The notes beneath the pieces are model-generated. The model saw nothing but the letters and a program-made list of their open reading frames with translations. It had not been told where the DNA came from and searched no databases. Source: an uncultured Candidatus Saccharibacteria bacterium (GTDB lineage Bacteria; Patescibacteriota; CAZHWT01). From it: DNA of 64,000 bases. Below, in pieces: positions 41,438 to 44,400 of this stretch (its first letter is position 1; every line of letters starts with the position of its first letter). The stretch covers positions 72,439 through 136,438 of the forward strand of contig CAZKPX010000004.1 in NCBI GenBank assembly GCA_964554805.1, given 5' to 3'. Both the position numbers and the translations under genes were made by a program.

Positions 41438-44400
41438 TTAAACATTCCCTTGTTCAATATCATTAGGGATTAGGCCGGAGAAGTCATCACCCGCTTCAGC
41501 TGTTCCCTCATCAGATCGTCGAGGACCAGCATCATAATCTCGTTGCCTTGATTTCTTTGGCCTGGTGGCTGTTATGTCATTGGCTGTTATGTCATTGTCA
41601 GCCTGCTCATCATCAGCAACGTCGTTTAATTTAATATCTGAATCTTTCTTGCGTCCATTTTCCAGAGCAAAGCTCTCTAGTTCATCAAAGCTAATTTTAT
41701 CCTGAGCTTTATCTGATATATGCTTAAGCACTTGCTCGACGGCTGCTTTATTTAATTTGGGGTACAGCATAGTAATCGTTTGTCGTAGCTGCCTTTGGCT
41801 TTGGCTGGCACTCGCTTTGGCTAGGCTATTAACAACAGAAGCGTAGTTATCTATAGTCACTTGGCCAAGATTGCTTGGTTCGGCGGTGGCTTGCTCAGGC
41901 TGATCGGATGCCTCCTCTTCGGGTTCGCTAGTTGTAAGCTCAGGCTCATTATCTATGGTGGACTGAATAGCTGGTGAAACTACTTGTTGTGGCACTTCGA
42001 CCGCATCTATGGCATCGGACTTGACTAGCTTCTTGCGTATTCCTTCAGCTGCTGCACCGTTTGCTAATTGGCGCATGTCACGGAGGCGATTTTCTACCTC
42101 TGTGTTCTGCCACTGATCAAATAGTTGTTTCATATAAGCTTGCAGCTCATCTTTGACTTGTGGCCAGCGTGGATCTTGGGCGTTCTTCATTTTTAGAACT
42201 TTCCGCGCTTGTGAGTATGCCCGTTTCCTAATATTGTTCTTATCATTAGGGGTCAGCACTTCTTTATAGGCATGTTTCATAAACCTCGTTGGATTGAACC
42301 TATCGTCGACAAAGGCATTTTTCAACTCAACACGAGGTAGGGCGCCGGGGCTTGTTAGGGTCTCAGTTGGAGCCGTTGGGTGTGTGGGCTGGGTTGGTTC
42401 TGGTTGCGTAGGGGGGGCTGGCTCCGTTGGAGGTGTGGGTTCTGATTCTGTGGGAGGCAATGGTTCTGCTGGTGCTGGTGGCTCCGGCTGAGTTGGGGTA
42501 GGCGGCTCTATTGGGGTAGGCGGCTCTATTGGGTCTGGTTCTGGCTGTGTCGGAGTCGCTGGTTCTGCAGGTTCAGTTCCAGTTGGAGTCGGTGGGGCCG
42601 TTGGTTCGGGCTCAGTTGGGGCTGGCGGTTCAGGTTGGATTGGTGCTCGCGGATCGGTAGGTTCTGGTTCTGGCTCTACGGGAGGCATCGGCTCTGCTGG
42701 TACTGGTGGCTCCGGCTGAGTTGGAGTTGGCGGTTCGGGTCGGGTCGGGGTTGTAGGTTCTACAGGAGGTGCGGGCTGGGCTGGTTCGGGTTGGGTTGGG
42801 GTAGGTGGATTTATTGGCTCTGGTTGTGGCTCTGGCTCTGGTTCTGGTTCTGGTTGTGGCTGTGTTGGGATAGGCGGCTCAGTGGGTTCAGACTCTGTCG
42901 GTACTAGCGGATCGGTAGGTTCTGGTTCTGGCGCTGTTGGGGTTGCAGGCTCGGGTTCTGTTGGAGCTGTCGGCTCAGTTGGGTCTATTGGTGAGGTTGG
43001 TTCAGGTTGAGTCGGGGCTGTAGGTTCTGGCTCTGGTTGAGTTGGCTCTGGTTCGGTGGGTGCCGACGGCTCTGTTGGAGTTGCAGGCTGGATCGGCTCA
43101 GGTTGAGCTGGAGTTGTGGGTTCTATAGGCTCTGGTTCTGGCGGCGTAGTTGGGGTGGCTGGGTCCGTTGGTGCTGCCGGCTCTGTAGGCGCTACTGGCT
43201 CTGTTGGCTCAGGTCCGGTTGGTACTGTTGGATTTGTTGGCGCCGTGGGATCCGCTGGCTCTGGTTCAGGTTGAGTTGGCTTGGATGGCGAAGCAGGTCT
43301 GGCTTCTGCTGGACTTAAGTTTCTTCCCCAACCAAGAGACGTTAGGGGCACAAATGATTCAGAGCTATTAGTCTCCTCGACTGAAGTGGCCATCTCTTCA
43401 TCCGGCACACCAGTTCCACGCCCACCATCCGCCATCTGCATATCCTCATTGCTTACATCAGCGCCATTGCCTCTTGCTCCGTCTGACATGGCAGGGGTAG
43501 CCGGGTGTGCTTCTTGGTTTTGAACCATTTCGCTGTCGATTGAGCGAGCTCTTGAATACTCTGAGCGATCAGGGTTTAAATCTTGAACATTTTCAGGGAC
43601 TACTGTGGAGCGACCCTGGATAGTTTCGCTGTCGATTGAGCGATTTGTATCAACGACAGCCGGGGCTGAGGGCTGGTTTTGAACCATTTCGCTGTCAAGT
43701 CTTGGGGTTGGGTTGTAGTTATTGTTGGCTAGGTGTTGGTCTTGGACATTTTCAGGAACTAGGTGAGAGCGACCGCCTACTGTTTCGCTGTCGATTGAGC
43801 GAGCTCTTGAATACTCTGAGCGATCAGGGTTTAAATCTTGAACATTTTCAGGGACTACTGTGGAGCGACCCTGGATAGTTTCGCTGTCGATTGAGCGATT
43901 TGTATCAACGACAGCCGGGGCTGAGGGCTGGTTTTGAACCATTTCGCTGTCAAGTCTTGGGGTTGGGTTGTAGTTATTGTTGGCTAGGTGTTGGTCTTGG
44001 ACATTTTCAGGAACTAGGTGAGAGCGACCGCCTACTGTTTCGCTGTCGATTGAGCGGAATAAGTCTGGCACGTCATCTGATGGAAGTGGGTCTAGTGGCT
44101 TCTTATCTGGAGGATCAATTATTTCATCTTCTTGAGAGGCACCTGGGCCAGTGGCTGTTTGTTCTACTGCAGTCGTGCCATCAAGCTCTAACTGTCCCAT
44201 GAGCTCAGAGTCAATGTCTCTAGCGGGTACGCTGGCCAAGAAGGTTACTGAGCCGTTTTCATTCTGCACTCCTACACCTAAGCGCTCAAAGTCAAATTCT
44301 AGTTCTCCAGTAGTAGGGTTTTTGTTGACAAGCTCTGGTGGCAATGTGTCTAGGTCTACTGACAGCGTGCCGTCTGGGTTGAGTGGGATAATAATATCTC

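What the first reader, a model, noticed from the sequence alone, without database searches (positions are those of the whole stretch)
43510..44056. Perfect 255-bp in-frame tandem duplication inside the giant gene.
Two consecutive 255-bp units are essentially identical; the plus-strand ORF translations are identical over 55 aa at 43636 and 43891. Each unit is built of alternating 96-bp and 159-bp sub-repeats sharing tttcgctgtcgattgagcg (encoding RSIDSET on the gene strand). Identity at the DNA level indicates a very recent duplication, or ongoing concerted evolution. The locus is expected to vary in length by unequal crossing-over and so to change protein length.
Basis: seen in the sequence. 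Interest (0 to 1): 0.6.

Follow-up and report, generated by a model that had tools for sequence, protein, structure and literature searches.

The report
Recent in-frame duplication in orphan giant gene
A 255-base stretch inside a 2022-codon gene of unknown function has been copied head-to-tail without a single difference, adding 85 amino acids to a floppy, repeat-rich part of the protein; the duplication is real but it is an ordinary kind of event.

Summary
Window 43528-44056 is an exact tandem array (2 x 255 nt plus a 19-nt third start, 0 mismatches). It lies in frame in the minus-strand ORF 41438..47506 (2022 aa; array = aa 1151-1327).

It is not a one-copy assembly artefact. Independent k=31 Logan contigs from run SRR16798009 are 100% identical to the window. 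They stop exactly 30 nt (k-1) inside each end of the array. My simulation gives that pattern for two or more copies and no break for one copy. The exact copy number and any mixture of alleles remain untested.

On the gene strand the unit is X1(33 aa)-Y1(20)-X2(32), followed by a diverged Y2. So an older XY duplication (about 65% DNA identity) preceded the perfect one. The new junction lies within a 19-nt repeat (TTTCGCTGTCGATTGAGCG, 5 copies), which points to slipped misalignment or unequal exchange.

The duplicated segment is acidic and poor in aromatic residues, and is modelled without structure. It sits between a small beta domain and a 245-aa Pro/Thr/Glu-rich tract.

The protein is cysteine-free, has two hydrophobic segments and is essentially an orphan. 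Its only relatives are two weak hits, one of which shares an upstream DUF5663-like gene.

No population data exist, so length variation is plausible but unshown. Interest is low.

The parts
43528..44056 (-). Perfect tandem array: 2 x 255 nt plus the 19-nt start of a third unit; encodes aa 1151-1327 of the giant protein
   Evidence: (D3), 21: exact self-match at offset 255 over 274 nt, 0 mismatches
43802..44056 (-). Gene-proximal copy (aa 1151-1235): X1 RSIDSETVGGRSHLVPENVQDQHLANNNYNPTP, Y1 RLDSEMVQNQPSAPAVVDTN, X2 RSIDSETIQGRSTVVPENVQDLNPDRSEYSRA
43547..43801 (-). Gene-distal copy (aa 1236-1320), identical to the first in all 255 nt
43487..43546 (-). Y2 (aa 1321-1340, RSIDSEMVQNQEAHPATPAM): older diverged partner of Y1. 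Its first 19 nt are the fifth copy of the 19-mer, which is where the array ends
   Evidence: (D10, D11)
44038..44056 (-). 19-nt repeat TTTCGCTGTCGATTGAGCG (also at 43528, 43624, 43783 and 43879): the microhomology that holds the duplication junction
   Evidence: (D10); chance expectation 0.02
41438..47506 (-). Giant ORF, 2022 aa, no cysteine, no Pfam or NCBIfam family; essentially an orphan
47499..47807 (-). 102-aa acidic helical ORF that overlaps the giant gene's start by 8 nt. It is DUF5663-like (weak match) and homologous to the gene upstream of the distant relative P0001
46595..46684 (-). Hydrophobic, glycine-rich segment aa 275-304 (NPILAGGVAAAIFGMKYVAFLGGATAGGAI), conserved with P0001 and P0002
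46058..46126 (-). Second hydrophobic segment aa 461-483, preceded by KKRRRDYVTRH
44627..45166 (-). Older diverged repeats of the type Y-x-N-L-P-x-S-S-x-D (4 copies, aa 781-960)
   Evidence: (D8)
44216..44518 (-). Small beta-rich domain aa ~997-1097, immediately upstream of the array
   Evidence: pLDDT 54-75; weak FN3/Ig-like matches, E 0.04-0.1; E 0.006 to the N-terminal part of a glycoside hydrolase
42587..43321 (-). Pro/Thr/Glu-rich low-complexity tract aa 1396-1640 (97 P, 40 T and 40 E in 245 aa)
   Evidence: (D1-D7)
42493..42533 (-). Second perfect in-frame tandem duplication in the same gene (18 nt x 2.3; PIEPPT)
41566..41597 (-). Third perfect in-frame tandem duplication in the same gene (15 nt x 2.1; NDITA)

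Best explanation
This is a genuine, evolutionarily recent tandem duplication of 85 codons.

Origin. It arose when replication or sister-strand exchange misaligned two copies of a 19-nt direct repeat lying 255 nt apart. Those copies are the first RSIDSE codons of sub-repeats X1 and Y2. The ancestral arrangement X1-Y1-X2-Y2 was itself the product of an older duplication of an X-Y pair that has since diverged. The event turned it into X1-Y1-X2-X1-Y1-X2-Y2.

Position in the protein. The duplicated segment lies in a structure-poor, acidic spacer (net charge -6 per unit, no lysine) of a 2022-aa cysteine-free protein. Inferred: two hydrophobic segments near the N-terminus anchor the protein in the membrane, and its long repeat-rich part (Y-N-L-P-S-S-D repeats, beta domain, RSIDSE array, Pro/Thr/Glu tract, helical C-terminus) extends into the cell envelope.

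Consequence. The immediate effect is a longer spacer and more RSIDSE(T/M) motifs: three become five, or four become seven if the RLDSEM variants are counted. Most likely this is neutral or nearly so.

Future behaviour. The two 255-nt identical copies are now a substrate for homologous unequal exchange, so gain and loss of units is expected.

Status of each step. Shown: the sequence, the frame, the junction, read support for at least two copies, and the repeat hierarchy. Inferred: the misalignment mechanism, disorder, topology, neutrality and future instability.
For: - Exact array and in-frame position.
- Junction confined to the 19-mer: there is no identity to the left of 43528 and exactly 19 nt to the right of 44037. 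The 19-mer occurs five times and nowhere else in the window.
- Repeat hierarchy: X1 vs X2 are 67% and Y1 vs Y2 are 64% identical in DNA, against 100% for the 255-nt copies.
- Read support: Logan contig L086 ends at window 44027 and L087 starts at 43557. Both are 100% identical to the window. I predicted the 705-aa partial product of L087 from the k-1 rule before looking it up. The simulated k=31 graph has no branch for one copy and branches exactly at 43528-43557 and 44027-44056 for two or three copies. Logan uses k=31, discards k-mers seen once, and has no duplicated 31-mers in its contigs (PMC12424806).
- Slippage-prone gene: three of the four perfect tandem duplications with a unit of 9 nt or more in the 64-kb window lie in this gene, and all three are multiples of 3.
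- Disorder: the array has mean hydropathy -1.02 and 2.3% aromatic residues. In the AF2 model it has pLDDT 31-41 and no secondary structure, while the adjacent beta domain in the same model reaches 54-75.
- Envelope location: two hydrophobic segments; 0 Cys where 13.5 are expected from the other ORFs of the window; a Pro/Thr/Glu tract.
- Real gene: the codon-position GC pattern matches the neighbouring genes. The gene pair with a DUF5663-like small ORF recurs at the locus of the distant relative P0001.
Against: - The copy number rests on one assembly. The de Bruijn evidence shows two or more copies but cannot tell 2 from 3 or more, or a pure population from a mixed one.
- The Logan run is probably the data set (or the sample) from which the NCBI contig was built. 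It is therefore independent of the assembler but not of the biology.
- Disorder comes from a single-sequence AF2 model and from composition only.
- Topology and envelope location are inferences. There is no signal peptide and no recognised anchor or domain.
- No second strain is available, so recency has no calibration and instability has not been observed.
Confidence: 0.75

Rival explanations
1. Copy-number misestimate. The array is real, but the organism carries more than two units, or the sample holds a mixture of alleles (1, 2, 3 or more units). The assembler simply wrote the shortest path that uses every graph edge.
For: In the simulation, two and three copies give the same branch nodes at k=31. 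The Logan contigs break at the array, so short k-mers cannot resolve it. How the 137,844-nt NCBI contig was assembled is not known.
Against: Nothing argues directly against it. Two copies is the most parsimonious traversal and is what the deposited contig shows. This rival modifies the best explanation rather than replacing it.
Confidence: 0.25
2. Assembly artefact. Only one copy exists and the second was created by faulty repeat resolution.
For: Perfect identity of long repeats is what a mis-traversed loop would also give.
Against: A one-copy allele has no repeated 30-mer anywhere in 40208-47912, so a k=31 assembly would run straight through it. The Logan contigs instead end exactly 30 nt inside each edge of the array. 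That requires junction 31-mers seen at least twice in the reads. Both contigs are reported in two samples.
Confidence: 0.03
3. Concerted evolution. The two 255-nt units are old and are kept identical by repeated gene conversion.
For: The RSIDSE codons are identical in X1, X2 and Y2, and DSEMVQN is codon-identical in Y1 and Y2, although the rest of these sub-repeats has diverged.
Against: Homogenisation clearly does not act on X1/X2 or Y1/Y2 as wholes (64-67% identity). The excess of identical codons in the motif is not significant (6/6 versus 6/11, Fisher p = 0.10). A single duplication explains 255 identical positions with one event.
Confidence: 0.08
4. Selected variable-number locus. RSIDSE(T/M) is a functional short linear motif (a binding, modification or processing site). 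Its number, or the spacer length, is tuned by expansion and contraction, as in variable surface proteins.
For: The motif is kept in all seven sub-repeats while the sequence between them diverges. A similar ARDIDSELMGQ ends the preceding beta domain. The distant relative P0002 carries its own 93-aa tandem duplication and 14-aa repeats.
Against: There is no polymorphism data, no known motif match and only two units. Nothing separates this from neutral drift in a tolerant linker.
Confidence: 0.12

Closest known systems
Identical long tandem repeats in Gram-positive surface proteins (group B Streptococcus alpha C protein and Rib, with repeats of about 240 nt; staphylococcal Aap/SasG, enterococcal Esp). 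Recalled from my own knowledge, not tested against those sequences.
   Same: Long units that are multiples of three and identical at the DNA level, head to tail inside a very large envelope-associated protein gene. Copy number there changes by recombination between units and alters protein length.
   Different: In those proteins the repeats encode folded Ig-like domains with Pfam families, usually occur in many copies, and the proteins have a signal peptide and LPXTG anchor. Here there are two copies of a structure-poor unit, no Pfam match, no LPXTG, no signal peptide, and no variation has been observed.
Misalignment (slipped-strand or unequal sister exchange) duplications and deletions between short direct repeats, as characterised in E. 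coli. Established knowledge, recalled from memory.
   Same: The junction lies inside a short direct repeat (19 nt) whose partners were 255 nt apart. The product is a perfect head-to-tail duplication flanked by a third copy of the short repeat.
   Different: The event was not observed and the enzymology is unknown in this organism. Whether 19 nt suffices for RecA-dependent exchange here cannot be told.
Simple-sequence contingency loci (phase variation)
   Same: Repeat-mediated, reversible change in a gene for a probable envelope protein.
   Different: Contingency loci switch genes on and off through frame shifts or promoter spacing. This 255-nt unit keeps the frame and can only change protein length.
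Uncharacterised large membrane proteins P0001 (1565 aa) and P0002 (1717 aa) from metagenomes. P0001 is preceded by a DUF5663-like small gene.
   Same: They share an N-terminal module of about 340 aa: helical region, glycine-rich hydrophobic segment LGGA..GG..GAMR, about 150 aa of charged helix, then a second hydrophobic segment (E 1.7e-6 and 5e-5 against 1.84 billion proteins). The upstream small genes are homologous (pairwise E 3e-11). P0002 also carries tandem duplications.
   Different: Identity is 24-27% over that module only. P0001 and P0002 carry an HExxH motif in a C-terminal domain that is absent here. They lack the RSIDSE array and the long Pro/Thr/Glu tract. None has any annotation.

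Membership tests
In-frame tandem duplication (minisatellite-type repeat) within a coding sequence | Head-to-tail copies with no spacer | tested here: met
   start-to-start spacing of 255 nt equals the unit length, 100% identity
In-frame tandem duplication (minisatellite-type repeat) within a coding sequence | Unit length is a multiple of 3 and the reading frame stays open | tested here: met
   255 nt = 85 codons; no stops in the gene frame, 2-17 stops in the other five frames
In-frame tandem duplication (minisatellite-type repeat) within a coding sequence | Supported by sequence reads rather than by one assembler's path | tested here: met
   Logan k=31 contigs break at k-1 nt inside both edges, as simulated for two or more copies. 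The exact number of copies is not determined.
Variable-number tandem repeat / length-variable surface protein locus | Different copy numbers in different strains or cells | not testable with these tools
   No second strain is available. Proteins of the window are singletons at 90% identity. There are no relatives in GTDB representatives or JGI metagenomes.
Rib / alpha-C-like repeat surface proteins | Repeat matches the Rib domain family, and the protein has a signal peptide and LPXTG anchor | tested here: not met
   No Pfam family at E <= 1 apart from one sub-threshold, irrelevant hit. No LPXTG. The N-terminus is hydrophilic.
Phase-variable contingency locus | Repeat gain or loss shifts the frame or alters a promoter | tested here: not met
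   The unit is a multiple of 3 and lies 3.4 kb inside the ORF
DUF5663-associated large membrane proteins (P0001-like; an unnamed grouping defined here) | Small DUF5663-like gene immediately upstream on the same strand | tested here: met
   Window 47499..47807 overlaps the giant gene's start by 8 nt. The DUF5663 match is E 0.0028, below the Pfam cut-off. The same arrangement occurs at L088, and the two small proteins align at E 3e-11.
DUF5663-associated large membrane proteins (P0001-like; an unnamed grouping defined here) | Shared N-terminal module with two hydrophobic segments around a charged helical stretch | tested here: met
   The similarity is weak (24-27% identity).
DUF5663-associated large membrane proteins (P0001-like; an unnamed grouping defined here) | C-terminal domain with HExxH motif | tested here: not met
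   HExxH is present in P0001 (residue 1344) and P0002 (residue 1503) and absent from the window protein

The most novel reading that the evidence does not exclude
The array is not a passive spacer. RSIDSE(T/M) would be a multivalent functional motif (for example a modification or docking site) of a previously undescribed two-gene envelope module: a DUF5663-like small protein plus a giant cysteine-free membrane protein. The module sits in a lineage with no close sequenced relatives. Under this reading the DNA-identical 19-mer serves as a built-in recombination site through which the cell population varies motif number and reach of the protein.
Probability: 0.1. Interest if true: 0.45.

Novelty: new member of a known kind. 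Interest (0 to 1): 0.2.

Why it matters
As it stands, it matters little. In-frame tandem duplications in low-complexity parts of large bacterial envelope proteins are common, and their origin by misalignment at short repeats is textbook.

Three things are useful:
- The locus is a clean, datable example with its junction microhomology and an older round of duplication still visible.
- It marks a spot where short-read assemblies will break or miscount, so the annotated protein length should be treated as a minimum estimate.
- The host gene belongs to an almost orphan pair of genes in an organism without close relatives in very large databases. That pair, rather than the duplication, is where any real novelty lies.

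Tried and rejected
**Homologue searches**
- Whole-protein, N-terminal (785 aa) and three-sequence-alignment searches of the 5.8-billion-protein index returned nothing. For the whole-protein query the candidates were probably swamped by Pro/Glu words, so these are weak negatives.
- The exhaustive HMMER scan covered aa 1-1200 only and gave two weak hits.
- The C-terminal 822 aa were searched only within the whole-protein query and against Pfam and NCBIfam; the last 384 aa (1639-2022) were also searched against PDB sequences. Nothing was found.

**Scans for related DNA or loci**
- GTDB representative genomes and JGI metagenomes with N-terminal peptides: no relatives.
- Exact 19-mer in metagenomes: five single hits that share only 20-25 nt with the gene, so chance matches.
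- Plasmids, phage records, viral contigs, PHROGs, PADLOC: nothing. The gene is not mobile-element or defence related by these tests.

**Organism placement**
- The RF2 search returned only hits of about 50% identity, from Chloroflexota, Patescibacteria and Cyanobacteriota.
- Local synteny (prfB, ftsE, ftsX, M23 peptidase) is shared with two Saccharibacteria MAG loci, which have no giant gene. The lineage stays unplaced.

**Ideas tested and dropped**
- The 5-bp hairpin inside the 19-mer, flagged as terminator-like, is not better than shuffles (z -0.6 to -2.1).
- The plus-strand ORFs in the array are not genes. They are nested in the 6-kb ORF and identical only by virtue of the repeat.
- Homogenisation of the RSIDSE codons is not significant.

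**Structure**
- Single-sequence AF2 of the C-terminal 389 aa gave only low-confidence helices.
- The Foldseek search with the mid-segment model gave no match at E <= 0.001.

**Other**
- Literature searches for the run accession and for DUF5663 found nothing.
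Full report

Yes. Tandem Repeats Finder reports one array at 43528-44056 with period 255, 2.1 copies, 100% matches and no indels. The repeat finder gives 43528-43782 and 43783-44037 at 100% identity. A direct scan shows an exact self-match at offset 255 over 274 nt. It has no extension to the left of 43528 and exactly 19 nt to the right of 44037.

The 19-mer TTTCGCTGTCGATTGAGCG occurs five times, at spacings of 96, 159, 96 and 159 nt. It occurs nowhere else in the window even with three mismatches, where chance predicts 0.02 matches.

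The array lies in the minus-strand ORF 41438..47506 (2022 aa). That is the only frame open through the array.

**2. Is it an assembly artefact?**

The small ORF upstream of the giant gene is also found on a Logan contig from run SRR16798009 (L086, 3886 nt). That contig carries the first 1160 codons of the giant gene and then stops. Its end corresponds to window 44027, exactly 30 nt inside the array.

Logan contigs are built from a k=31 de Bruijn graph. K-mers seen only once are discarded, and no 31-mer occurs twice in the output (PMC12424806). From the k-1 rule I predicted that the downstream contig should begin at window 43557 and carry a partial product of residues 1318-2022. Looking up exactly that 705-aa product returned contig L087, with the gene starting at base 3. 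Both contigs are 100% identical to the window over 3886 and 3350 nt.

A simulation of the k=31 graph gave these results:
- With one unit there is no branching node anywhere in 40208-47912, so the assembly would run through.
- With two or three units, branching nodes appear exactly at 43528-43557 and 44027-44056.

The reads therefore contain the copy-to-copy junction, and the one-copy artefact is rejected. The evidence has three limits:
- The graph cannot tell two copies from more than two.
- It cannot exclude a mixed population.
- The run is probably the source of the NCBI contig (137,844 nt) that holds these proteins. The check is therefore independent of the assembler, not of the sample.

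**3. Anatomy**

On the gene strand the unit reads as three sub-repeats:

| Sub-repeat | Length | Sequence |
|---|---|---|
| X1 | 33 aa | RSIDSETVGGRSHLVPENVQDQHLANNNYNPTP |
| Y1 | 20 aa | RLDSEMVQNQPSAPAVVDTN |
| X2 | 32 aa | RSIDSETIQGRSTVVPENVQDLNPDRSEYSRA |

The unit occurs twice and is followed by Y2, RSIDSEMVQNQEAHPATPAM. X1 and X2 are 67% identical at the DNA level, and Y1 and Y2 are 64% identical.

The simplest history has two steps. An X-Y pair duplicated long ago and diverged into X1-Y1-X2-Y2. Then X1-Y1-X2 duplicated recently, with the crossover inside the 19-nt identity shared by the starts of X1 and Y2. The product, unit-unit plus a third copy of the short repeat, is the classic outcome of misalignment between short direct repeats (established knowledge).

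Two side observations did not hold up as mechanisms:
- The six RSIDSE codons are identical in X1, X2 and Y2, whereas 5 of 11 other conserved positions differ synonymously. This is not significant (p = 0.10).
- The small hairpin in the 19-mer is no better than shuffled sequence.

The gene is generally slippage-prone. Three of the four perfect tandem duplications with units of 9 nt or more in the 64-kb window are in it (15, 18 and 255 nt), and all three keep the frame.

**4. What is the gene?**

It has no Pfam, NCBIfam, PHROG or PADLOC family and no convincing PDB sequence match.

An exhaustive HMMER search of 1.84 billion representatives with aa 1-1200 found two proteins, at E 1.7e-6 and 5e-5. 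They match only aa 153-496. The three sequences share this module:
- a helical stretch;
- a glycine-rich hydrophobic segment (LGGA..GG..GAMR);
- about 150 aa of charged helix;
- a second hydrophobic segment.

The homology is backed by gene order. P0001 is preceded by a 107-aa gene with a weak DUF5663 match. The window's giant gene is preceded by a 102-aa ORF with the same weak match, overlapping it by 8 nt. The two small proteins align at E 3e-11.

Downstream of the membrane module the window protein contains, in order:
- Asp/Ala/Val/Gly-rich repeats;
- four Y-N-L-P-x-S-S-x-D repeats;
- a small beta domain (aa ~997-1097; pLDDT 54-75; only weak FN3/Ig-like fold matches);
- the RSIDSE array;
- a 245-aa tract with 97 Pro, 40 Thr and 40 Glu;
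- a low-confidence helical C-terminus.

The array itself has pLDDT 31-41, no predicted secondary structure, mean hydropathy -1.02, 2.3% aromatic residues, and a net charge of -6 per unit.

The whole protein has no cysteine, where 13.5 would be expected from the other ORFs of the window. Together with the Pro/Thr-rich tract, this suggests, but does not prove, that the long C-terminal part lies outside the cytoplasm.

**5. Context and organism**

The gene sits between prfB (convergent) and two FKBP genes, with ftsE, ftsX, an M23 peptidase and secA nearby. A polysaccharide-synthesis cluster fills the left half of the window. A strong terminator-like hairpin follows the FKBP gene, and a promoter-like site precedes the small ORF. 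The small ORF and the giant gene therefore look like a two-gene operon (consensus matches only).

All seven window proteins found by exact look-up are singletons at 90% identity. Local gene order resembles two Saccharibacteria MAGs, which lack the giant gene. No related copy of the gene or of the repeat was found in GTDB representatives, JGI metagenomes, viral contigs, phages or plasmids.

**6. Verdict**

The duplication is real, recent and in frame. It most likely arose by misalignment at a 19-nt repeat in a tolerant, disordered spacer of a giant, probably envelope-exposed, membrane-anchored orphan protein. It lengthens the protein by 85 aa and raises the number of RSIDSE motifs.

The two identical 255-nt copies should make the locus recombinationally unstable, but no data exist to show variation. 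The phenomenon is of a well-known kind (compare identical repeats in streptococcal and staphylococcal surface proteins), and no known family membership is met.

Interest is low (0.2). The only non-trivial lead is the conserved pair of a DUF5663-like gene and a giant membrane protein in a poorly sampled lineage.

Noticed in passing
window 39837-39883, 40099-40131, 40180-40237, 26109-26157: Heptanucleotide tandem arrays in intergenic DNA (CAAAGGG/CAAAAGG, AGACAAG, TTTGCCC/TTTTGCC). The arrays at 39837 and 40180 are reverse complements of each other and flank the divergent ftsE / prfB promoter region. They resemble the short tandemly repeated heptamers known from filamentous cyanobacteria (recalled from memory).
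   Followed up: partly
window 20553-20583 and 20998-21029: The heptamer GAGCGAC, repeated 4.4 and 4.6 times, lies inside two adjacent minus-strand ORFs with no Pfam family (19002..20600 and 20604..22046). It gives ARRSS-type peptides in both. A 7-nt unit in coding DNA would shift the frame on gain or loss of one unit.
   Followed up: partly
window 47499-47807 and L088 719-1042: A small acidic helical protein with a weak DUF5663 match lies immediately upstream of a giant membrane protein, both here and at the locus of the only detectable relative. This is a conserved, uncharacterised gene pair.
   Followed up: yes
window 41438-47506: The 2022-aa protein contains no cysteine at all (13.5 expected from the other ORFs of the window; Poisson P about 1e-6, partly explained by its low-complexity composition).
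   Followed up: partly
window 40314-41396: Release factor 2 appears to be encoded in one continuous frame from the ATG at 40314. Alignments to other RF2 genes begin at that residue, so no programmed +1 frameshift site is needed. The listed ORF start at 40161 is an upstream extension through the heptamer array.
   Followed up: partly
window 48127-48453 and 48516-48983: Two FKBP-type peptidyl-prolyl isomerase genes lie in tandem. The second has an N-terminal hydrophobic anchor and a Ser/Thr-rich linker. A strong terminator-like hairpin at 48113-48083 separates them from the operon of the small ORF and the giant gene.
   Followed up: no
window 49387-50730: A 447-aa ORF with a long Pro/Gln/Ser/Ala-rich central region and no Pfam family. 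It is a singleton at 90% identity: another orphan low-complexity protein next to the giant gene.
   Followed up: no
whole window: All seven window proteins found by exact look-up are the only members of their 90%-identity clusters among about 15 billion proteins (an eighth, SecA, was not in the collection). They are known only from one NCBI contig of 137,844 nt and from Logan assemblies. The organism has no close sequenced relatives in these collections.
   Followed up: partly
P0002 residues 1-110 and ~120-310: The distant relative P0002 has its own 14-aa repeat array (IIAGEPxPNPDAxV) and a 93-aa tandem duplication. Repeat expansion in the variable parts seems to be a habit of this group of proteins.
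   Followed up: partly
window 2698-31235: A long minus-strand cluster for envelope polysaccharide synthesis: glycosyltransferases of families 1, 2 and 4, a Wzy-like polymerase, two flippase-like proteins, epimerases/dehydratases, an FrhB/FdhB-like protein, a Mur ligase and an LPG-synthase-like membrane protein.
   Followed up: no
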